Sequence record: NC_079180.1
Origin: Escherichia phage SKA49
Strand: one strand, 5' to 3'
Length of the DNA: 51,548 nt
In this document: one piece after another, positions 6,955 through 51,383 of the stretch
How positions within the stretch are numbered: position 1 is the stretch's first letter
Layout: every line of letters begins with the position of its first letter
Notes under the pieces: generated by a model
The model's input: only the letters and a program-made list of their open reading frames with translations
What the model was told of the DNA's origin: nothing
Database searches by the model: none
Position numbers and translations under genes: made by a program

Positions 6955-6994
6955 ATTAACAAGGAGCATTCATTGAGTGTTCCTGATTAATCTA

Positions 6995-7013
6995 ACATTA
7001 GTTGGATATGAGG
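6995..7013 (+). promoter_or_regulatory. phage promoter-like motif ACATTAGTTGGATATGAGG
   Basis: Conserved motif about 70 nt upstream of gene 7084. Confidence 0.55.
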
Positions 7014-8062: not shown

Positions 8063-8221
8063 GAATCTTCTGCAAACTGTTTGGGCATAGTTGGGAGTTG
8101 GTCACAAAGTGGAGAGGTGTGAAAACCTACATGTGTACCTGCTGCCTGAAAATCAAAGAAGAGTAATTAACAGAGGTCATTCCACTTCGAGTGGCCTCGA
8201 TTAATTGTCACTGGAGCATTC

Positions 8222-8572
8222 ATGAAAACTTTATACATTGCACTCACAATTTTGTTCGGGGTATTCGCATTCAAATCAGAAGCATCTGTTCGCAGCTTCC
8301 AGTGTGGCGGGTACAAAATGTCCGTTGAAACAATTACAATGAGCCAGCCACTCATTGCAACAATTTCTTTGCACGAAGGTACTTGGATTGAGATTCCAGA
8401 TAACGGAAATCCAAACCCAATGTCCACAGTGTTCTACAACACACAGAGCAGTAAACTGGCTTTAGTTGGTGTTGACGCTGAGGAACGTTTAGTGCTACAG
8501 ATTTATCGTGACATTGACTTCTTTCATGCCAAATTTCCACTTTTATCAACATATTGTAAGGAAGTTAAATGA
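8222..8572 (+). CDS. predicted secreted protein with N-terminal signal peptide (116 aa)
   Basis: N-terminus MKTLYIALTILFGVFAFKSEA is signal-peptide-like; GGAG RBS. Confidence 0.55.
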   Translation: MKTLYIALTILFGVFAFKSEASVRSFQCGGYKMSVETITMSQPLIATISLHEGTWIEIPDNGNPNPMSTVFYNTQSSKLALVGVDAEERLVLQIYRDIDFFHAKFPLLSTYCKEVK

Positions 8573-8802
8573 CGTCATCCGAATTTACCATTGATGGAGT
8601 ACCATACTTACTTGAATCCAGTTGCGAATATCGTCACTGGTCAGTAATTCGTGACCGAGTAGTTAAATTCTTGGAGCGAGTAGGGAAAGATGCGGCTATT
8701 CTGACTACAGCCACAGTAGAAGGAACAACCGAAATCAATCGGGAGCTTGTATCTTTTAAATTAACCATCAACCCAACAGGAAATCCATTCCGTGAAAGTT
8801 GA
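8569..8802 (+). CDS. hypothetical protein (77 aa)
   Basis: AAGGAAG RBS; ATG overlaps upstream stop. Confidence 0.5.
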   Translation: MTSSEFTIDGVPYLLESSCEYRHWSVIRDRVVKFLERVGKDAAILTTATVEGTTEINRELVSFKLTINPTGNPFRES

Positions 8803-9058
8803 AGAATTAGCTGACCGACTAACGGCAGCAAAGAAAGAGCTTGCAACGCACACCATTCGTGTTAATTCTCTTAAGGCACTCCCTTCTGGTGAGGAAATCT
8901 CACTATTCACAGACAATATTTGGTTTACCATGAATCGTGCGCAGTTTGTTGAGATTCAGGACCAACGTTTGGCTGAACTGGAGCAGAGAGTCAGAAATTA
9001 CGAAGGTTTGTTGCAAACTTTACAAGCAACTCTGGACCAGGAGTTGGGAAATGTCTAA
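8792..9058 (+). CDS. hypothetical coiled-coil protein (88 aa, GTG start)
   Basis: Track ORF; weak RBS. Confidence 0.4.
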   Translation: MKVEELADRLTAAKKELATHTIRVNSLKALPSGEEISLFTDNIWFTMNRAQFVEIQDQRLAELEQRVRNYEGLLQTLQATLDQELGNV

Positions 9059-9467
9059 TGTTAAGTTGGGCCAACGCTCACTTGACCGACTCAAAGGTGT
9101 AAATCCCTCATTAGTGGCAGTTTTCAAGCGTGCATGTGAAACAATGCCGTTTGATGTAACTGTTCTTGAAGGATTGCGCACTTATGAGCGGCAACAAGAG
9201 CTTTTAAAGCAGGGTGCAACCAAAGTTTCAGTTAGCCGACACATGTCAGGCAATGCTTTAGATATTGCACCGTATCCAATTGACTGGAATGACCTCGAAC
9301 GATTCAAAGTTTTAGCTCATCATATGTTCAAAGCTGCAAAAGAGCTTGGAATTACCATTCGTTGGGGTGGGAACTGGGGCCGTATTGATGAAAATCAACC
9401 GTATCCACCACTCGCACCAGGTAAGAAGAAGCTGATTGATATGCCGCACTTCGAACTTCCAGCATAA
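9051..9467 (+). CDS. peptidase M15-family peptidoglycan hydrolase (L-alanyl-D-glutamate peptidase-like)
   Basis: LEGLRTYERQQELLKQGATKVSVSRHMSGNALDIAPYPIDWNDLERF resembles the His/Asp zinc-site block of T5-type endolysins; GGAG RBS; in frame with track ORF 8937..9467. Confidence 0.65.
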   Translation: MSNVKLGQRSLDRLKGVNPSLVAVFKRACETMPFDVTVLEGLRTYERQQELLKQGATKVSVSRHMSGNALDIAPYPIDWNDLERFKVLAHHMFKAAKELGITIRWGGNWGRIDENQPYPPLAPGKKKLIDMPHFELPA

Positions 9468-10265: not shown

Positions 10266-10334
10266 TTCCAGGCGGGTTTCTTCGAAGTGCCAAGCGGGTT
10301 TTGTGCTCGCATTGGCCTTCGGCTTTAGTCTGAA

Positions 10335-10353
10335 ACATTAGTGGGATTTGATT
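10335..10353 (+). promoter_or_regulatory. phage promoter-like motif ACATTAGTGGGATTTGATT
   Basis: Preceded by CTGAA as in other copies; intergenic. Confidence 0.45.
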
Positions 10354-14066: not shown

Positions 14067-14303
14067 ATGCAACAGCTTAAATCAGTAATTCTTGGCGTCC
14101 TGACTGCATTTGGTATTATCATTGCAGTGTTCCTCAAAGGCAAAAGCTCAGGCAAAGCCGAGGAGCGTCAGGAAGCCAAAGAGAAGCAATTCGATTCCAT
14201 TAAAGAATCTATCGAGATTAAAACGCATGTTCAGAAAGAAGTGTCTAGCAGTTCTGATAGCAATGTCGATAGTGAGTTGCTCTCAAAGTGGGTTCGTAAG
14301 TGA
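14067..14303 (+). CDS. small membrane protein (N-terminal TM helix, charged C-terminus; 78 aa)
   Basis: AAGGTGA RBS; TM segment SVILGVLTAFGIIIAVFL. Confidence 0.45.
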   Translation: MQQLKSVILGVLTAFGIIIAVFLKGKSSGKAEERQEAKEKQFDSIKESIEIKTHVQKEVSSSSDSNVDSELLSKWVRK

Positions 14304-14436
14304 TTATTGCTTAATTGCACAACCAATCTATTTGGATGTTGCAGAAGTGAAAATCTTATCACGCGAAACCAAAACACAGATTCTAGTCCACAATGAAACG
14401 TGGGCACAAAAGTGTTCTCAACTTACCCGACAGTGA
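14227..14436 (+). CDS. possible lipoprotein (69 aa) overlapping the 3' end of 14067..14303 in another frame
   Basis: Signal-like MFRKKCLAVLIAMSIVSC with lipobox-like IVSC; weak RBS. Confidence 0.25.
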   Translation: MFRKKCLAVLIAMSIVSCSQSGFVSDYCLIAQPIYLDVAEVKILSRETKTQILVHNETWAQKCSQLTRQ

Positions 14437-36489: not shown

Positions 36490-36665
36490 TATCCCTGTTC
36501 CCCGACATAAAATATTTTCTGCATCGTCCTATAATCGAAGACAGTTCTCTCTGCAAGTTACGTGAATTGCAAGATGGAACCTATTCGATTATGGACTTAT
36601 TGCTATTCCACGACATTCTCGATTTGCGTAAGAAACTCGAACCAGTAGATGAAGACAATGGCTAA
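36031..36665 (+). CDS. predicted -1 frameshift product of tail assembly chaperone (G-T / E-E'-like)
   Basis: Slippery heptamer T_TTT_TTC at 36387-36393; -1 frame stop TGA 36384-36386 immediately upstream; -1 frame open for 93 codons to TAA 36663-36665, overlapping the tape-measure start. Confidence 0.5.
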
Positions 36666-39600
36666 TCAAAAAGATTTAATGAAGTTGAGCGTTAATGAGT
36701 TAATTGCATTAGGCTCTCAAAGCGGTCTGACTTTCCATGCTGGTATGAAGAAGTCGCACATGGTTCAACAACTTAGTGCGAGCGCTGCTTCGGGATGGCT
36801 GGATACAAATGCAGAATTAATGGGTGGGTCGTTTGAAGATGACAGTTTAATTACTGAATCTTTGGGCGACTCTTCCATGATTTCAGACGCTGCCCACATT
36901 GCACAAGTGCTTTCAAGTGCTGGCTACACAGAAGCATTTCATGCAGCAATGAATGGCCCAACACACCATGTAGAAGCTGTTCACGCATACATGGAAAGGC
37001 TTGGTGTCAACACAGATGATGTGTGGATGCACATGCCAAAGCCAAATCCGAACTTACCGCAAGGTAGCTTCAACATGCTTAATGCCTATATGCGAGATAC
37101 TTTGCAAGGGCATCAAGATATTATGCCAGAAATCCCAGGCCACTATGCTGGGGATATTATGGCTGAATACTCCACCAACCGTGGAAACATTGCTGACTCA
37201 TATAACTACATGGCTCACATGTATGTTGACCGTGAGCAATACAGCAATCATGAACAATACGCAAGAGACATTAGTCGAGTTGCCAAACGTCTGGAACAAG
37301 AGTTACCCGCAGCCTTTAAGGAAGTTGGGTATACCTCGGCCTCTAATGTAGGAAATAAATCGGCCCCACATATTTCTTACATGGATGCACTTCCTCAGAT
37401 TGGTTCTCCTTCAATTGTTTCTGGCATTGCACATCCTCGTGCACCTCTTAACGCATCTGGACTTCCTCTTGGTTCTTATGGTTCTGGCATAAATCCAGAA
37501 TACTCCCTCACTGCATCATTAACTGGTGGCACTGGTTGGAGTGAACCAAGCAAGGCTTTATATTCCTCTATTAGTGAAGCTGTTAAATCTGCTGCCAAAG
37601 TTTATTCTGGTTCCAAAGGGATGATGAATACTCGTCACGAAGTATCTGACCGTGACATGATTATGGACAGCGCAACTCGCTATACAGATTTGGAAGAAGC
37701 CAGAAGCGGGTACGAAAACCTTCGTTCTGAACTTGCAGATGAACCGGCTTATTCTGCATCGAGTGTTCGAGCTATTCTCGAAAACACTTATGACAAAATG
37801 GATTCCGAACCTGTTCGCATTCCAAAGATGAAGGGAGCATCTCAGCGAGTCGAAAAAGATTCGCAATCAACATCTACAGAATTTACAGCACAACTTGGAG
37901 AGGCCACCAATTGGAACTCTGCAAGAATGCGTCGTGAGGAAATTGCGATTGCAAATATGGATAGTGCTGGATTCCGTGATGTATCAGACTATGGTACAGG
38001 ACGTTCCGAGTCTCCCGTCAGATTCCATGACTTAGAACAGGGCAGCCAAGAGTGGCTAGACTTCCGTAAAAACTATGACATAACTGGTTCAACTGTTGGA
38101 ACTTTCTTAGGAAACAACCCATACACCCGACCTTGGGCGGGAATGATTGACAAGATTGGTCTATCTCGTAGTAAAGAGCACAGCGATTTCACTAAGAAGA
38201 TGTTCGCTGATGGTCACAGGACGGAAGAAGAAGCACGCGCTCGTGTTGGTAAGGAATTTGGATTCGATATCAAACAAACTGGCGCTATAACAAATGACAA
38301 CTATCCCGCCTTCATGTATTCTCCTGATGGTCTTATTGGCGATGATGCCATTTGGGAGCACAAGAATCCGCAAAGGGCTGGTAAGTTTGCTGACCTTCTT
38401 AAAGGCGACCATCCAGATTACATGGACCAAATTCAATTTGGTATGCACGTTTCTGGCCGTTCTCGTGCTTTGTTCTCACAAACCATCAACGACGAAACAC
38501 GTTCACAGTGGATTGAGAAGGACGAAGGATGGTACGAGAGAAACAGAAATCGCCTTGATTCTGTTCTTGGCCGTCTTGATGCTGGGCGAGAGTTTGTTAG
38601 AAACAATGCTGGACTAGACCGAGAAGAACTGATTGCTGGTGCAAGAAGTGCAATGACTGGTGATGGTATCTGGAAGGATATTCGTCAAAGGTCAACTCGT
38701 GGCTACTCTGCCATTGCTGGAACTCCAGAAGACCCATTTATTGGTTCACGTTCTTCGTACAATCCAAAGGCATCATATTCTGACTACCAGCCAAACTTTG
38801 TAATGCACGAGCAAAACTTTCCAGCAACCACAGGAAACGGTGATACTGGAAACGACTCGATGGCATTGTCTGTTAAGAAAGGTATCCTTGCTGCTCAGGA
38901 AGAAAACAGGCAGAAGGGTATTGGTGCAGATGCAGACTTTAATGGCAAAGCCGATTCAATGGGTTGGGACCGCGAAAGATTTGATGCTGCCAATGGCGGT
39001 GGATATTCTGGCGGTGGTGGTGGTCGTGGCGGCAACTTCACAAGCGGTGGCAACTACTATGATGACTACGGTCGCATGGGTGGTTCACTAGCTGCTGGCA
39101 TTGCTGGAGGTAGTATTGGTTCAGCAACCAACGGAGTTATGCAAGCATTAATGGCAACTCCTGCGGGACGTATGGCTGCTGTAGGCATTGGTGCTATTCA
39201 GATTGGCAATGAAGCTGCTGAATACATGAATGACTTTATCGGCAACTCGCTTGATGCTGGCGTGATAAATCCTAATGAATACTCTTCTATGTCGCAAGGC
39301 TTGGAGATGTTAGGACTCAACTCACAACAAGCGGCACGTCTGAATCAAACCACACATAGTGCCTACAACACCATGCTTAACGGCGACCCCAGCGCCGCTG
39401 TGAACATCGTTCGCGGCAGTAGGGGATTGCTCACCATAGGTGATATTCGTGCGACAGGCGGCGACCCTGTGGCCCTAGCTCGCATCATGCAGGAAAGGGG
39501 CAAGGAGCGTGGCTGGAGTCAGGCCCGTATCGCAGGTGCTGCCGAAATGGCTGGCCTGAATGGGATGGCGCGAGCCTACGACCGCACGGAATACAGCCAT

Positions 39601-40374
39601 GAGCAAGCTGGTTCGGTGGTAGAAGCGGGTAGAAACTCTGACTTTGCCGAAGGTATGGCCCAGTCGGAAATGTTGCAGGGAAGCCGCGCACGGATGCTGC
39701 CGAGCTACAACGTGCCACAAAGTGTCTTATCTAACGGTGCTTCCGTATTCGAGGCTGGCAGTGATTCACTTGATAGTGTACGCACTGGATTCAATAATAC
39801 GCGAGAATTTGCTGGAAGTGTTTACGACTTTATCGCCCAGGAAGAATCTGGCGGTCGTGAATATAACAAAGATGGTTCTCGTGTAACAAGTCGTACTGGT
39901 GCTCGTGGGATAATGCAGATTCTTCCTTCAACAGCTCGTGACCCAGGATTTGGAATCAGGCCGTCTGATGGAACTCCGGAAGATGATGCACGAGTTGGTC
40001 GTGAATATTATGACGCAATGTACAAGCGTTATGGCGACCACGAAAAGGCAATGGCTGCTTACACCGATGGTCCTGGAACTGTTGACAAAGCTGTTGATAA
40101 GAATGGGCTGGATTGGCTAACTGCTGTTCCTGTACAAGCACAGAATCGCGTCAAAGCATTCCGTGAATGGGCCAAGTCTTCTCAGACTTTGGAAGAAGGT
40201 GCTACAGGGTTTACTCGCAATGGAATGTCGTACGGTCAAACCCAAACTGTTGTTAATGTTAAGATTGATGCTAAGGTCAACAACCAGACTGCTTCTGCTA
40301 CAGTGGCAATTCCTGGTGGTCAGACTGTGACTCAACAAATGAACATGCACAATGGTGCGCAACAAAGAAGATAA
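36649..40374 (+). CDS. tape-measure-like large virion protein with C-terminal lytic transglycosylase domain
   Basis: Transglycosylase motifs QEESGG, GARGIMQILPSTA, AYTDGPGTV; Gly-rich segment; N-terminal Rho_N-like LSVNELIALGSQSGL; mid-region YqaJ-like motifs ITGSTVG...NPY, EHKNP, DQIQFGMHVSG. Confidence 0.6.
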   Translation: MKTMANQKDLMKLSVNELIALGSQSGLTFHAGMKKSHMVQQLSASAASGWLDTNAELMGGSFEDDSLITESLGDSSMISDAAHIAQVLSSAGYTEAFHAAMNGPTHHVEAVHAYMERLGVNTDDVWMHMPKPNPNLPQGSFNMLNAYMRDTLQGHQDIMPEIPGHYAGDIMAEYSTNRGNIADSYNYMAHMYVDREQYSNHEQYARDISRVAKRLEQELPAAFKEVGYTSASNVGNKSAPHISYMDALPQIGSPSIVSGIAHPRAPLNASGLPLGSYGSGINPEYSLTASLTGGTGWSEPSKALYSSISEAVKSAAKVYSGSKGMMNTRHEVSDRDMIMDSATRYTDLEEARSGYENLRSELADEPAYSASSVRAILENTYDKMDSEPVRIPKMKGASQRVEKDSQSTSTEFTAQLGEATNWNSARMRREEIAIANMDSAGFRDVSDYGTGRSESPVRFHDLEQGSQEWLDFRKNYDITGSTVGTFLGNNPYTRPWAGMIDKIGLSRSKEHSDFTKKMFADGHRTEEEARARVGKEFGFDIKQTGAITNDNYPAFMYSPDGLIGDDAIWEHKNPQRAGKFADLLKGDHPDYMDQIQFGMHVSGRSRALFSQTINDETRSQWIEKDEGWYERNRNRLDSVLGRLDAGREFVRNNAGLDREELIAGARSAMTGDGIWKDIRQRSTRGYSAIAGTPEDPFIGSRSSYNPKASYSDYQPNFVMHEQNFPATTGNGDTGNDSMALSVKKGILAAQEENRQKGIGADADFNGKADSMGWDRERFDAANGGGYSGGGGGRGGNFTSGGNYYDDYGRMGGSLAAGIAGGSIGSATNGVMQALMATPAGRMAAVGIGAIQIGNEAAEYMNDFIGNSLDAGVINPNEYSSMSQGLEMLGLNSQQAARLNQTTHSAYNTMLNGDPSAAVNIVRGSRGLLTIGDIRATGGDPVALARIMQERGKERGWSQARIAGAAEMAGLNGMARAYDRTEYSHEQAGSVVEAGRNSDFAEGMAQSEMLQGSRARMLPSYNVPQSVLSNGASVFEAGSDSLDSVRTGFNNTREFAGSVYDFIAQEESGGREYNKDGSRVTSRTGARGIMQILPSTARDPGFGIRPSDGTPEDDARVGREYYDAMYKRYGDHEKAMAAYTDGPGTVDKAVDKNGLDWLTAVPVQAQNRVKAFREWAKSSQTLEEGATGFTRNGMSYGQTQTVVNVKIDAKVNNQTASATVAIPGGQTVTQQMNMHNGAQQRR

Positions 40375-49369: not shown

Positions 49370-49711
49370 ATGGAACGATTATCCATTCAGATGTTTATCG
49401 ACCTCATGCACCAATATGGTGTTTGGCATGGATTGCTGGCTGGTCTGACGGCTTTAATCCGTGGGGCATATGAAAGTGAGGGATTAAGCAAAGCGTTGCT
49501 GGATGCAGCGCTATGCAGCTTGATTGGCCTGTTTGCCTTTCATGTTGCTGGCACATTTGAAACTTTTACGACTAACGTCACAATGCAGTTAGTTCTGGCT
49601 ATCGTGATTGGTGTCATTGGTGCTAACCTCATTATCACAACTGTCAGGGAAAGTTTCTCTGGCGCAATCAAACAACTTAACCCTTTAACGTGGTTCAAGA
49701 AGGCACGATGA
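49370..49711 (+). CDS. holin (lambda S-like)
   Basis: AAGGA RBS; 113 aa with hydrophobic segments GLLAGLTALI, LCSLIGLFAFHVAG, LVLAIVIGVIGANLIITTV. Confidence 0.65.
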   Translation: MERLSIQMFIDLMHQYGVWHGLLAGLTALIRGAYESEGLSKALLDAALCSLIGLFAFHVAGTFETFTTNVTMQLVLAIVIGVIGANLIITTVRESFSGAIKQLNPLTWFKKAR

Positions 49712-49728
49712 AATGATAAGGAACTCGA

Positions 49729-50283
49729 ATGCTATCATTCAAAGTCCTTGCACTTCTGGCAGCTTTAGTTCACATCAACGCCCCAGCTTCGGTTGGGGCA
49801 GTGAATTCTGCTATTACAGATTTTGCAAGTCATTCTTATTTAAATGGAAGTCTGAAACTATCTTCTTCACAACGCAAAGAGCTAGAATGCTACACTAAAG
49901 TTATCTGGTATGAAGCTCGCGGAGAAGACAAACATGGAAAGATTCTGGTAGCTAATGTCGTCCGTAATAGAACTGAGTTCGGGAAGCCATTCGCTAACAC
50001 CGTTTGTGATGTTGTCTATCAACGCAATCAATTTGCATGGACACGAGAAGCAAAGAAGAAGAATGCTCAATGGAAGCATGTAGCAAAGATTAATTATGCC
50101 ACAGAACAACAACAAGTTCTGGACACCATTAGTGTTGCAATCTCTTTTGTACTATTTAATCAACCCTCTGTCACCAAAGCAACCCACTTTTGTACAGCAT
50201 CTGAGAAGTGCAACTTCAAGAATGTTAAAGGTCTGGGACGTTATGGTGGCCATAAATTCTATGAGTATCTAGGAAATCTGTAA
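49729..50283 (+). CDS. SleB/CwlJ-like cell wall hydrolase with N-terminal signal sequence (endolysin candidate)
   Basis: [25 protein letters not shown]...[15 protein letters not shown]; N-terminus [24 protein letters not shown]; AAGGA RBS. Confidence 0.7.
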
Positions 50284-51383
50284 TGGCTTACACTACCTTT
50301 TCACAAACCAAGAATAACCAACTACTAGAGCCAATGTTCTTTGGTCAGAACGTTAACGTTGCTCGATATGACCAACAGAAGTACAGCATCTTCGAGAAGT
50401 TAATCGAGAAGCAGTTGTCTTTCTTTTGGCGACCTGAGGAGGTTGATGTTAGCCAGGACCGAATTGACTATGCTGGTCTTCCTGAGTGTGAGAAACACAT
50501 TTTCACCAGCAATTTACGATACCAAATCTTGCTTGATTCCATTCAGGGACGTGGGCCAACTACAGTTTTGCTACCAATTGTGAGCATTCCTGAGCTTGAA
50601 ACTTGGATTGAAACTTGGTCATTCTCAGAGACAATTCACTCTCGTTCTTACACGCATATTATTCGCAATATTGTCACCGACCCAAGCGTCATCTTTGATG
50701 AAATTGTGGAGAATGAGCATATTAAAATGCGTGCAATTGGCATCTCCCAATATTATGACGAGCTTCAACACCTGACTTCCATGTGGCATCTGCATGAAGA
50801 TAAAGTTTCTCTTCGTGAGCTTAAGAAGAAGCTGTATTTATGCCTAATGTCCATCAATGCACTGGAAGCAATTCGCTTTTATGTCAGTTTTGCTTGCTCA
50901 TTTGCCTTCGCTGAACGCAAGTTAATGGAAGGAAATGCCAAGATTATTCGCTTAATTGCTCGTGATGAAGCGCTCCATTTGACCGGAACTCAACACATGC
51001 TGAACCTTCTTGCAAGCGGTGCTGATGACCCAGAAATGGCCGAAATTGCTAAAGAATGCCGCCAAGAATGCCAAGAAATGTTCGAAAATGTGGCCCAACA
51101 AGAGAAAGATTGGGCTGATTATTTGTTCAAAGATGGCTCAATGATTGGCTTAAACAGGCAAATTCTGTGCGGATATGTGGAATATATTACAAATATTCGT
51201 ATGCAAGCAGTTGGATTGGATGCTCCATTCAAAGGTGCTACTAACCCGATTCCTTGGATTAACGCATGGTTGAATTCGGATGCTGTACAAGTTGCTCCAC
51301 AAGAAACGGAGATTAGTTCGTACCTTGTTGGGCAGATTGACTCCGAAGTTGACACCAATGCTCTAGGCGGATTTGAACTATGA
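50283..51383 (+). CDS. nrdB: class Ia ribonucleotide reductase beta subunit
   Basis: Near-colinear with enterobacterial NrdB as I recall it: [54 protein letters not shown]-terminal [13 protein letters not shown]; one short internal deletion. Confidence 0.85.

What the first reader, a model, noticed from the sequence alone, without database searches (positions are those of the whole stretch)
9051..9467. M15-type peptidoglycan peptidase encoded in the early/middle region, far from the lysis cassette
A clear T5-endolysin-like L-alanyl-D-glutamate peptidase sits among early genes, while the holin is paired 40 kb away with a different, SleB-like hydrolase, and the tape-measure protein carries a third peptidoglycan-cleaving domain. 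The early peptidase may be a virion-associated or superinfection-related enzyme, or the true endolysin separated from its holin.
Basis: partly seen in the sequence, partly recalled or inferred. Interest (0 to 1): 0.45.

Follow-up and report, generated by a model that had tools for sequence, protein, structure and literature searches.

The report
Phage endolysin gene far from holin
The gene is a real, intact T5-type cell-wall peptidase of a phiEcoM-GJ1/ST32-like coliphage, already annotated as an endolysin in all its relatives; it is most likely one of two wall-degrading enzymes the phage uses to burst the cell, so the finding is largely ordinary.

Summary
Window 9051-9467 (+) encodes a 138-aa signal-less M15C (T5/RB49-type) L-Ala-D-Glu peptidase with every catalytic residue intact and a confident T5/RB49/ChiX-like model.

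The window is a near-complete Carltongylesvirus genome (Chaseviridae, ~91% nt identity to ST32/DE15/SA91KD). This gene is annotated "endolysin" in all relatives. The two-hydrolase layout has already been described in print for phage SKA49.

The lysis genes are dispersed:
- peptidase at 9 kb
- overlapped spanins at 14 kb
- a lambda-S-like holin plus an exported SleB-like Hydrolase_2 enzyme at 49 kb
- an SLT domain in the tape-measure protein

Comparison across the family adds one point. All six Chaseviridae genera examined in detail pair the exported SleB-like enzyme with a small cytoplasmic peptidase. That peptidase varies in type (M15C, M15A, CHAP, another M15) and in place. In Nefertitivirinae it sits directly upstream of the SleB-like gene in the late lysis cassette.

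It gives no support to a virion or superinfection role.

The gene is not "early". It lies in a putative phage-RNA-polymerase (middle) unit. Novelty is low. Which enzyme is essential remains untested.

The parts
9051..9467 (+). M15C (T5/RB49-type) L-alanyl-D-glutamate endopeptidase, 138 aa, no signal peptide. Zinc and catalytic residues H64, D71, D130, H133; conserved R43 and W109.
   Evidence: R43, H64, D71, D130 and H133 invariant across 26 homologues; W109 in at least 90%. AF2 model, pLDDT 93.8. TM 0.77-0.82 to ChiX and LysECD7; also matches EndoRB49 and EndoT5; no hydrophobic segment.
9039..9043 (+). Shine-Dalgarno AGGAG, 7 nt before the ATG. The start codon overlaps the stop of the upstream ORF 8792-9058, suggesting translational coupling.
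   Evidence: Sequence read directly; ORF table.
6993..7012 (+). Putative phage-RNA-polymerase promoter (TAACATTAGTTGGATATGAG), upstream of ssb. It heads the unit that contains the peptidase gene.
   Evidence: Matches the promoters annotated in SA91KD. The core CATTAGTTGGAT occurs 14 times at <=2 mismatches against 5.3 expected; the 0-1-mismatch + strand sites I checked against ORFs (252, 2563, 6996, 10336, 12467) are intergenic. ICTV regards the family's promoters as not yet established.
8173..8198 (+). Internal GC-rich hairpin, annotated as a rho-independent terminator in SA91KD. It lies between the promoter and the peptidase gene and may attenuate transcription.
10269..10332 (+). Strong stem-loop ending the unit. 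It is followed immediately by the next phage-type promoter (10333-10352).
   Evidence: -29.4 kcal/mol, z = -3.25; sequence; terminator and promoter at the homologous place in SA91KD.
14067..14303 (+). i-spanin (78 aa, N-terminal transmembrane segment).
   Evidence: PHROG Rz-like spanin 3e-19. Homologous to the phiEcoM-GJ1 spanin pair listed by Kongari et al. 2018. Hydropathy.
14227..14436 (+). o-spanin (69 aa, lipobox IVSC), overlapping the i-spanin gene in another frame.
   Evidence: Lipobox scan; PHROG Rz-like spanin 1e-17.
49370..49711 (+). Holin, lambda-S family, probably three transmembrane segments (class I). It is the only holin candidate in the window.
   Evidence: Pfam Phage_holin_3_1 7.5e-8 and PHROG holin 1e-17. 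The Myduc homologue (54% identity) is annotated 'Class I holin - three TMDs'. A transmembrane scan finds no membrane protein next to the peptidase gene.
49729..50283 (+). SleB-like Hydrolase_2 cell-wall hydrolase, 184 aa, with an N-terminal export signal ([24 protein letters not shown]|V) and an invariant Glu in the YEARGE motif.
   Evidence: Pfam 1.3e-15. Weak match to B. cereus SleB 4f55. Alignment invariants E62, R64, N80, R81, C54, C93. Short Sec-type N-termini in all homologues.
39829..40104 (+). SLT lytic-transglycosylase domain inside the tape-measure-position protein (36649-40374). Inferred to be the entry-associated wall-cleaving activity, not part of lysis.
   Evidence: Pfam SLT 6.7e-13. 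The orthologous 'tail tape measure protein' was detected in 4HA13 virions.

Best explanation
The gene encodes a soluble, cytoplasmic zinc L-alanyl-D-glutamate endopeptidase that acts as a holin-dependent endolysin.

Proposed sequence of events:
1. The gene is transcribed with ssb and an ArdA-like gene from a phage-polymerase (middle) unit. (The promoter motif, hairpins and gene order are shown; transcription from them is inferred.)
2. The protein accumulates harmlessly in the cytoplasm. (Inferred.)
3. The lambda-S-type holin, encoded 40 kb away at the right end of the linear genome, permeabilises the inner membrane. (Inferred.)
4. The peptidase then cuts the stem peptides of the sacculus. The separately exported SleB-like glycan-cleaving enzyme contributes to wall breakdown, and the spanins (14 kb) disrupt the outer membrane. 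(Inferred.)

The phage thus has a dispersed lysis system with two muralytic enzymes, not one cassette plus a stray enzyme.

Shown: gene identity, intact active site, absence of an export signal, gene layout, and family-wide pairing with the SleB-like enzyme.

Inferred: holin dependence, timing, bond specificity, and which enzyme is essential.
For: Identity and active site:
- Profile and sequence matches to biochemically characterised endolysins EndoT5, EndoRB49 and LysECD7.
- The GJ1 and ST32 orthologues are placed in the same orthologous group by Mikoulinskaia et al. 2023 (PMC10487532).
- R43, H64, D71, D130 and H133 are invariant and W109 is in at least 90% of 26 homologues down to 55% identity.
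- The AF2 model (pLDDT 93.8) superposes over its full length on ChiX, LysECD7, EndoRB49 and EndoT5.
- No signal or transmembrane segment. The only holin is lambda-S-like, which fits a soluble endolysin that must cross the inner membrane.

Comparative evidence:
- Among the Chaseviridae records found with the terminase (110 matching records), Carltongylesvirus, Faunusvirus, Loessnervirus and relatives carry the M15C peptidase and the SleB-like gene.
- Suwonvirus PP101 lacks M15C but has a signal-less CHAP hydrolase in the same slot, between ssb and the antirestriction gene.
- Myduc has a Peptidase_M15_3 enzyme (2e-30) near ssb.
- In Nefertitivirinae a peptidase sits immediately upstream of the SleB-like gene in the late cassette. 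This holds for BUCT696 and pAh6-C (M15_4-like; Pfam 8e-5 and 4e-5; PHROG endolysin 6e-10 for BUCT696) and for Spp001 (M15_3, 6e-10).
- Relatives of the Aeromonas-type peptidase are annotated as the endolysin, in some records beside a holin, in other phages.
- T5-like phages carry the same pair in mirror image: M15C beside the holin and an exported SleB-like gene elsewhere.
- The closest non-Chaseviridae homologue examined also lies among DNA-metabolism genes.
Against: - No experiment on this enzyme or any Chaseviridae orthologue was found.
- The gene beside the holin is the SleB-like one, which several authors regard as 'the' endolysin of the group (PP101 paper; annotations).
- If that enzyme is sufficient, the peptidase could be dispensable.
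- A putative terminator hairpin lies between the promoter and the gene.
- Promoter assignments are predictions only.
Confidence: 0.7

Rival explanations
1. The exported SleB-like enzyme next to the holin is the only functional endolysin. The M15 peptidase would then be a dispensable back-up, or would serve a non-lysis role during the middle period, such as wall remodelling or exclusion of superinfecting phage.
For: The holin and SleB-like genes are adjacent and conserved in every genus examined. Some other phage families annotate a Hydrolase_2 protein as their endolysin. The peptidase type is replaceable.
Against: - All SleB-like homologues carry short Sec-type signal peptides rather than SAR anchors. 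They would therefore reach the wall without the holin.
- The T5 homologue sits in the record's early (P-D/E promoter, tRNA) region, yet T5 does not lyse early; the lysis timing is from my own knowledge.
- A cytoplasmic peptidase is retained in all six genera examined despite repeated replacement. In Nefertitivirinae it sits inside the lysis cassette.
Confidence: 0.17
2. The peptidase is packaged in the virion and helps DNA entry.
For: None beyond the fact that some phages carry M15 or CHAP domains on tail proteins. The PP101 CHAP enzyme resembles the C-terminal domain of a 'baseplate hub/tail lysozyme' PHROG.
Against: - The gene lies in the DNA-metabolism region, not among structural genes.
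- The tape-measure protein already carries an SLT domain.
- The orthologue is absent from the 15 proteins listed for CsCl-purified 4HA13 virions. That list is restricted to >=50% coverage, so it is not exhaustive.
Confidence: 0.03
3. Like T7 lysozyme (gp3.5), the enzyme doubles as a regulator that binds the phage's T7-like RNA polymerase.
For: The phage has a single-subunit T7-like RNA polymerase (331-2445). As in T7, a wall hydrolase gene sits in the middle (class II-like) region, far from the holin at the right end. The T7 layout is from my own knowledge.
Against: The fold differs from T7 lysozyme's amidase_2 fold (from my own knowledge; the query's own fold is). The slot is filled by unrelated enzymes (CHAP, M15A) in sister genera that have the same polymerase. 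That is hard to reconcile with a specific protein-protein interaction.
Confidence: 0.03

Closest known systems
Bacteriophage T5 endolysin (EndoT5, L-alanoyl-D-glutamate peptidase; PDB 2MXZ/8P3A) and its orthologues EndoRB49 (23RI), EndoRB43 and LysECD7 (8Q2G)
   Same: Same M15C family. Same H-x6-D...D-x2-H zinc/catalytic set and conserved Trp. Single globular domain of ~130-138 aa with no signal peptide. Encoded in the early/DNA-metabolism part of a virulent phage genome. Sequence E-values 1e-23 to 7e-20; the model superposes on all of them, with TM 0.74-0.82 to LysECD7.
   Different: Only ~33-36% identity. The loop between W109 and D130, which binds the regulatory Ca2+ in T5, differs and carries a 6-aa insertion in this ST32-type allele. 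In T5 the gene is next to the holin; here it is 40 kb away.
Escherichia phage ST32 ORF24 / EcoM1 / phiEcoM-GJ1 gp21 'endolysin'
   Same: The same gene: 99.3% amino-acid identity to ST32 and EcoM1 and about 80% to GJ1, in the same genomic slot.
   Different: Nothing of substance. The window allele is the ST32-type mosaic: aa 1-84 identical to the Mangalitsa type, with a distinct C-terminal part.
Serratia marcescens ChiX (PDB 5OPZ)
   Same: Best structural match (TM 0.77/0.80). An L-Ala-D-Glu endopeptidase that works with a holin-like protein, ChiW (the ChiW pairing is from my own knowledge).
   Different: ChiX is a bacterial enzyme used for non-lytic chitinase secretion, not a phage lysis enzyme.
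Dispersed lysis genes of T7 (gp3.5 lysozyme in class II; holin 17.5 and spanins 18.5/18.7 at the right end) and T4 (e, t, pseT.3/pseT.2)
   Same: The endolysin is encoded far from the holin in a virulent phage. In T7 this comes with a phage RNA polymerase and a linear genome with terminal repeats (from my own knowledge; terminal repeats of Chaseviridae).
   Different: Different enzyme families. Here there is a second, exported hydrolase beside the holin, and the spanins lie in the middle region.
T5-like phages' second hydrolase (T5p081, 'cell wall hydrolase homolog', PF07486)
   Same: The same pairing of an M15C peptidase with an exported SleB-like enzyme in one genome.
   Different: Mirror-image layout. 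In T5 the peptidase is beside the holin and the SleB-like gene stands alone in the early region.

Membership tests
MEROPS M15C / Pfam Peptidase_M15_4, T5-type L-Ala-D-Glu endopeptidases | Profile match above the curated threshold | tested here: met
   PF13539 34.1 bits against a cutoff of 25; PHROG 465 2e-54.
MEROPS M15C / Pfam Peptidase_M15_4, T5-type L-Ala-D-Glu endopeptidases | Zinc ligands H-x6-D ... H, and a catalytic Asp three residues before the last His | tested here: met
   H64, D71, D130 and H133 are present and invariant in 26 homologues. Roles are as marked in PMC10487532.
MEROPS M15C / Pfam Peptidase_M15_4, T5-type L-Ala-D-Glu endopeptidases | Conserved Trp beside the active site (W114 in T5, W109 in RB49) | tested here: met
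   W109 lies in the WGGNW motif and is conserved in at least 90% of homologues (PMC10487532).
MEROPS M15C / Pfam Peptidase_M15_4, T5-type L-Ala-D-Glu endopeptidases | Hedgehog/DD-peptidase (LAS) fold over the whole chain | tested here: met
   AF2 pLDDT 93.8. Foldseek: ChiX 4e-11, EndoRB49 8e-11, LysECD7 1.5e-10, EndoT5 9e-9.
MEROPS M15C / Pfam Peptidase_M15_4, T5-type L-Ala-D-Glu endopeptidases | Cleavage of the L-Ala-D-Glu bond of peptidoglycan | not testable with these tools
   Needs muropeptide analysis of digested sacculi.
MEROPS M15C / Pfam Peptidase_M15_4, T5-type L-Ala-D-Glu endopeptidases | Ca2+ activation (T5 subtype only) | not tested
   The loop between W109 and D130 differs from T5 and varies among alleles. 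No prediction was attempted.
Canonical holin-dependent (cytoplasmic) endolysin | No signal peptide or SAR domain | tested here: met
   No 19-residue window reaches Kyte-Doolittle 1.5. This is a heuristic; SignalP was not available.
Canonical holin-dependent (cytoplasmic) endolysin | A holin able to release a folded protein is encoded by the same phage | tested here: met
   Lambda-S-family holin at 49370-49711. Its homologue is annotated class I with three TMDs. Hole size was not tested.
Canonical holin-dependent (cytoplasmic) endolysin | Required for host lysis | not testable with these tools
   No genetic data were found for any Chaseviridae member.
SAR endolysin (label often given to the neighbouring SleB-like enzyme 49729-50283) | N-terminal weakly hydrophobic membrane anchor long enough to span the membrane, and not cleaved | tested here: inconclusive
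   The window protein just reaches KD19 1.77. The PP101, Myduc, BUCT696 and T5 homologues do not reach 1.5, and all end in AxA-like sites (VGA, VHA, AEA, SQA). CPT annotates the Myduc protein 'not SAR'; others annotate 'SAR endolysin'. The evidence leans towards a cleavable signal peptide.
Virion-associated peptidoglycan hydrolase | Present in purified virions or encoded within or fused to a structural gene | tested here: not met
   The gene lies among DNA-metabolism genes. The orthologue is absent from the (non-exhaustive) 4HA13 virion protein list.
T7-lysozyme-type polymerase regulator | Amidase_2/PGRP fold with an RNAP-binding surface | tested here: not met
   The model has the hedgehog/DD-peptidase (LAS) fold and matches only M15-type peptidases in PDB. 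The slot is occupied by CHAP or M15A enzymes in sister genera.

The most novel reading that the evidence does not exclude
The exported SleB-like enzyme may be placed in the periplasm in advance but be non-lytic on its own. Lysis would be licensed only when the holin releases the cytoplasmic peptidase, whose trimming or uncrosslinking of stem peptides makes the glycan strands accessible.

Bacillus SleB is known to act on peptide-free muramic-delta-lactam (from my own knowledge). On this reading the interchangeable peptidase (M15C, M15A or CHAP) and the conserved Hydrolase_2 enzyme form an obligate two-step lysis pair, shared by Chaseviridae and T5-like phages.

Not excluded by my evidence:
- The pairing holds across the six Chaseviridae genera examined.
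- All SleB-like homologues carry Sec-type signals.
- The T5 homologue is an early gene.

Weakened by one observation: Phapecoctavirus-like phages pair a PF07486 protein with a GH19 glycosidase instead of a peptidase.
Probability: 0.12. Interest if true: 0.55.

Novelty: already known. Interest (0 to 1): 0.22.

Why it matters
For this gene, little. It is a 99%-identical copy of an annotated endolysin, and its separation from the holin is normal for virulent phages such as T4, T7 and T5.

There is a modest wider point. Chaseviridae, and in mirror image T5-like phages, always combine a replaceable cytoplasmic peptidase with a conserved exported SleB-like hydrolase. Nobody has tested which one is the essential endolysin, or why an exported hydrolase does not cause premature lysis. 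That question is directly testable with two knock-outs. It also bears on which enzyme to choose when mining these phages for enzybiotics.

Tried and rejected
- The phiEcoM-GJ1 genome paper (PMC2223254), which holds the virion proteome and promoter data, is not in the library.
- No transcriptomic study of any Chaseviridae member was found. The one candidate preprint concerns unrelated 186-kb phages.
- The search for homologues of the SleB-like protein in the large protein collection returned only close Chaseviridae relatives. It could not be used to survey partner enzymes in distant phages.
- The neighbourhoods of the SleB-like 'endolysin' in Salmonella phage 7-11 and Stenotrophomonas phage Yut3 were fetched. 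They were uninformative about a second hydrolase elsewhere in those genomes.
- A second holin or membrane protein next to the peptidase gene was looked for and not found.
- BLASTP between the window peptidase and the BUCT696 peptidase is not significant. Their relationship rests on shared motifs, a sub-threshold Pfam match and a shared PHROG.
- The T7-lysozyme-like regulator idea and the virion-enzyme idea were considered and rejected, for the reasons given under the rival explanations.
- A Pfam scan of nine further unannotated early and DNA-metabolism-region BUCT696 proteins found no additional wall hydrolase. That scan did not cover the whole proteome.

Full report
**What the window is.** A 3-kb stretch around the finding matches 44 phage records at 80-95% nucleotide identity. 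The best are Escherichia phages DE15, ST32 and SA91KD at ~91%. These are Carltongylesvirus (Chaseviridae, Cleopatravirinae): myoviruses with a T7-like single-subunit RNA polymerase. All credible genes are on the + strand. The window starts at the polymerase gene (331-2445) and ends after an RNR beta-subunit gene (50283-51383). Relatives have linear genomes with ~3-kb direct terminal repeats that include the polymerase gene (Myduc annotation; 4HA13; ICTV profile). The holin region is therefore at the right end of the map.

**Checking the observation.** The ORF from ATG 9051 to TAA 9467 has an AGGAG Shine-Dalgarno 7 nt upstream and overlaps the stop of the preceding ORF by 8 nt. Its 138-aa product matches:
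- Pfam Peptidase_M15_4 above threshold
- PHROG 465 'endolysin' at 2e-54
- the solved endolysins EndoRB49, LysECD7 and EndoT5, and Serratia ChiX, at 1e-23 to 3e-17

In an alignment of 26 homologues down to 55% identity, R43, H64, D71, D130 and H133 are invariant and W109 is present in at least 90%. These are the zinc ligands, the catalytic Asp and the conserved Trp described for this orthologous group, which explicitly includes the GJ1 and ST32 proteins (PMC10487532). An AlphaFold model built on that alignment has mean pLDDT 93.8. It superposes over its full length on ChiX (TM 0.77/0.80) and LysECD7 (0.74/0.82), and also matches EndoRB49 and EndoT5. There is no hydrophobic N-terminus.

- A lambda-S-family holin at 49370-49711.
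- A Hydrolase_2 (SleB-like) protein at 49729-50283.
- An SLT domain at residues 1061-1152 of the 1241-aa protein in the tape-measure position.

**What is already known.** The gene is annotated 'endolysin' or 'L-alanyl-D-glutamate peptidase' in every annotated relative. It is listed as ORF24 'endolysin' in the ST32 paper, alongside ORF77 holin and ORF78 'endolysin'. The window protein is 99.3% identical to the ST32 and EcoM1 proteins. [quoted passage not shown] It also reports a recombination breakpoint at residues 81/82 of the peptidase. I see the same mosaic: window residues 1-84 are identical to the Mangalitsa-type allele, while 85-138 follow a different lineage with a 6-residue insertion. 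No paper found reports an experiment on either enzyme.

**Anatomy of the lysis system.** The 'lysis cassette' at 49 kb is incomplete. Kongari et al. 2018 list an overlapped two-component spanin for phiEcoM-GJ1 at 14.7-15.1 kb. The window equivalents are 14067-14303 (i-spanin, N-terminal transmembrane segment) and 14227-14436 (o-spanin, lipobox IVSC). Both match Rz-like spanin PHROGs. The lysis genes are thus spread over three places. No membrane protein lies next to the peptidase gene, so the holin at 49 kb is the only holin candidate.

**Transcription context.** The motif annotated as the phage promoter in SA91KD has the core CATTAGTTGGAT. It occurs 14 times at <=2 mismatches against 5.3 expected. 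The 0-1-mismatch + strand copies I compared with the ORF table (252, 2563, 6996, 10336, 12467) lie between ORFs. The peptidase gene lies in the unit that starts at 6993-7012, upstream of ssb. That unit ends at a strong hairpin at 10269-10332 (-29.4 kcal/mol, z = -3.25), which is followed at once by the next promoter motif. A weaker hairpin at 8173-8198 lies in between. The gene is therefore 'middle', co-transcribed with ssb and an ArdA-like antirestriction gene, not host-polymerase 'early'. These promoters remain predictions; ICTV regards them as unidentified.

**Comparative evidence.** This is the most informative part. A terminase search finds 110 records, almost all of them ~50-57-kb Chaseviridae genomes.

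| Lineage | SleB-like gene | Cytoplasmic peptidase: type and place |
|---|---|---|
| Escherichia (36 records), Erwinia (22), Yersinia (8), Pantoea (2): Carltongylesvirus, Sabourvirus, Faunusvirus, Loessnervirus and relatives | present | M15C, left-hand middle-gene region |
| Suwonvirus PP101 | holin + SleB-like at the right end | no M15C by tblastn; a 158-aa signal-less CHAP-domain hydrolase in the same slot, between ssb and the antirestriction gene |
| Myducvirus Myduc | holin + SleB-like at the right end | Peptidase_M15_3 (2e-30), just upstream of ssb |
| Pahsextavirus BUCT696 and pAh6-C (Nefertitivirinae) | in the late cassette after the tail fibres | 115/116-aa M15_4-like protein (Pfam 8e-5 and 4e-5, just under threshold; H-x6-D and D-x2-H motifs read in BUCT696; PHROG 1768 endolysin 6e-10 for BUCT696), immediately upstream of the SleB-like gene |
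| Yushanvirus Spp001 (Nefertitivirinae) | in the late cassette | Peptidase_M15_3 (6e-10), immediately upstream of the SleB-like gene |

Relatives of the Aeromonas-type peptidase are annotated as the endolysin in many other phages, in some records beside a holin, for example ESSI2_ev040 and PaMx41.

The pair 'exported SleB-like enzyme plus small cytoplasmic peptidase' was found in all six genera examined in detail. The SleB-like member is inherited vertically. The peptidase member has been replaced by non-homologous or distantly related enzymes at least three times. In Cleopatravirinae it has been moved away from the cassette. Repeated replacement with retention is how endolysin genes typically behave. 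It argues for a selected muralytic role and against a role that depends on one particular protein surface.

**The SleB-like partner.** Across Chaseviridae and T5, the alignment keeps E62 (in the YEARGE motif aligned to SleB's YGESRGE), R64, N80, R81 and two cysteines, C54 and C93. An invariant Cys pair is compatible with a periplasmic disulfide; this is inference. Every homologue starts with a short hydrophobic stretch ending in an AxA-like site: VGA|V here, VHA|E in Myduc, AEA|S in BUCT696 and SQA|S in T5p081. Only the window protein barely reaches a transmembrane-like hydropathy. The Myduc annotators wrote 'No TMD - endolysin (not SAR)', whereas others label the protein a SAR endolysin. I lean towards a cleavable Sec signal, but could not run a dedicated predictor.

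T5-like phages carry the same two enzyme types in mirror image: M15C next to the holin, and the exported SleB-like T5p081 elsewhere, in the early region. Phapecoctavirus-like phages pair a PF07486 protein with a GH19-type endolysin. Together these suggest that the Hydrolase_2 protein is often a second, accessory hydrolase that accompanies a canonical soluble endolysin.

**Most likely mechanism.** The peptidase is made from the middle period onward and stays in the cytoplasm. After the class I holin triggers, it reaches the sacculus and cleaves stem peptides. The exported SleB-like enzyme cleaves glycan strands, and the spanins finish the envelope. What is shown is the enzyme's identity, its intact active site, the lack of an export signal, the genome layout and the family-wide pairing. 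Holin dependence, bond specificity, timing and essentiality are inferred. I put this at about 0.7.

**Rivals.**
- The SleB-like enzyme alone is the endolysin and the peptidase is dispensable or has another role (about 0.17).
- The peptidase is a virion enzyme (about 0.03). It lies outside the structural module, the tape-measure protein has its own SLT domain, and the orthologue is not among the 15 proteins listed from purified 4HA13 virions.
- The peptidase is a T7-lysozyme-like polymerase regulator (about 0.03). This is contradicted by the different fold and by replacement with CHAP or M15A enzymes in genera that have the same polymerase.

**Verdict.** The feature is real and correctly identified, but it is an already annotated and already discussed gene. 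An endolysin encoded far from its holin is normal for virulent phages; the T4 and T7 layouts are from my own knowledge, and T5-like and other contexts are. Interest is low. The residual value lies in the untested division of labour between the replaceable peptidase and the conserved exported SleB-like enzyme.

Noticed in passing
window 36649-40374 (YqaJ-like part at about 38050-38460): The tape-measure-position protein (1241 aa) carries a YqaJ-like viral recombinase/exonuclease domain as well as the SLT domain (Pfam PF09588 1.9e-13, aa 468-604; PHROG RecE-like exonuclease 8e-19). A nuclease-type domain inside a tape-measure protein is unusual.
   Followed up: no
window 8222-8572: A 116-aa protein with a Sec-type signal peptide (MKTLYIALTILFGVFAFKSEA|S) and two cysteines lies three genes upstream of the peptidase, in the same putative transcription unit. 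Its PHROG has no known function. It could be a periplasmic control or superinfection factor, but nothing was tested.
   Followed up: no
window 14067-14436: An overlapped i-spanin/o-spanin pair sits in the middle-gene region, 35 kb from the holin. It is unannotated in several relatives' records, for example SA91KD and ST32.
   Followed up: yes
L007 48019-48366 (Aeromonas phage BUCT696) and L017 2941-3291 (pAh6-C gp30): Both are annotated 'hypothetical protein' but are M15-type peptidases, lying directly upstream of the SleB-like hydrolase in the late lysis cassette.
   Followed up: yes
L003 9739-10215 (PP101) and L005 8689-9054 (Myduc): The slot held by the M15C peptidase in this window is occupied by a CHAP-domain hydrolase in Suwonvirus. 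Myducvirus has a Peptidase_M15_3 enzyme nearby. This is non-orthologous replacement of the cytoplasmic wall hydrolase.
   Followed up: yes
window 49729-50283; L008 1447-1896 (T5p081): SleB-like proteins of Chaseviridae and T5 share two invariant cysteines and Sec-type signal peptides. The T5 copy lies in the early region. How an exported hydrolase avoids premature lysis is unexplained.
   Followed up: partly
window 50283-51383: Only an RNR beta-subunit gene is present, at the right end after the lysis genes. Nefertitivirinae carry alpha and beta subunits next to the terminase gene.
   Followed up: no
window 9051-9467 compared with relatives: The peptidase and SleB-like alleles assort independently among Carltongylesvirus genomes. 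For example, TH25 has the ST32-type peptidase (98.5%) but a 74%-identity SleB-like allele. The peptidase gene itself is mosaic around residue 84/85.
   Followed up: partly
record PP952070.1 (hits H9, H157, H231): A record named 'Staphylococcus phage Pel53' (host Staphylococcus hyicus) is a Carltongylesvirus-like genome, ~89% identical to this coliphage window. The host label is probably wrong.
   Followed up: no
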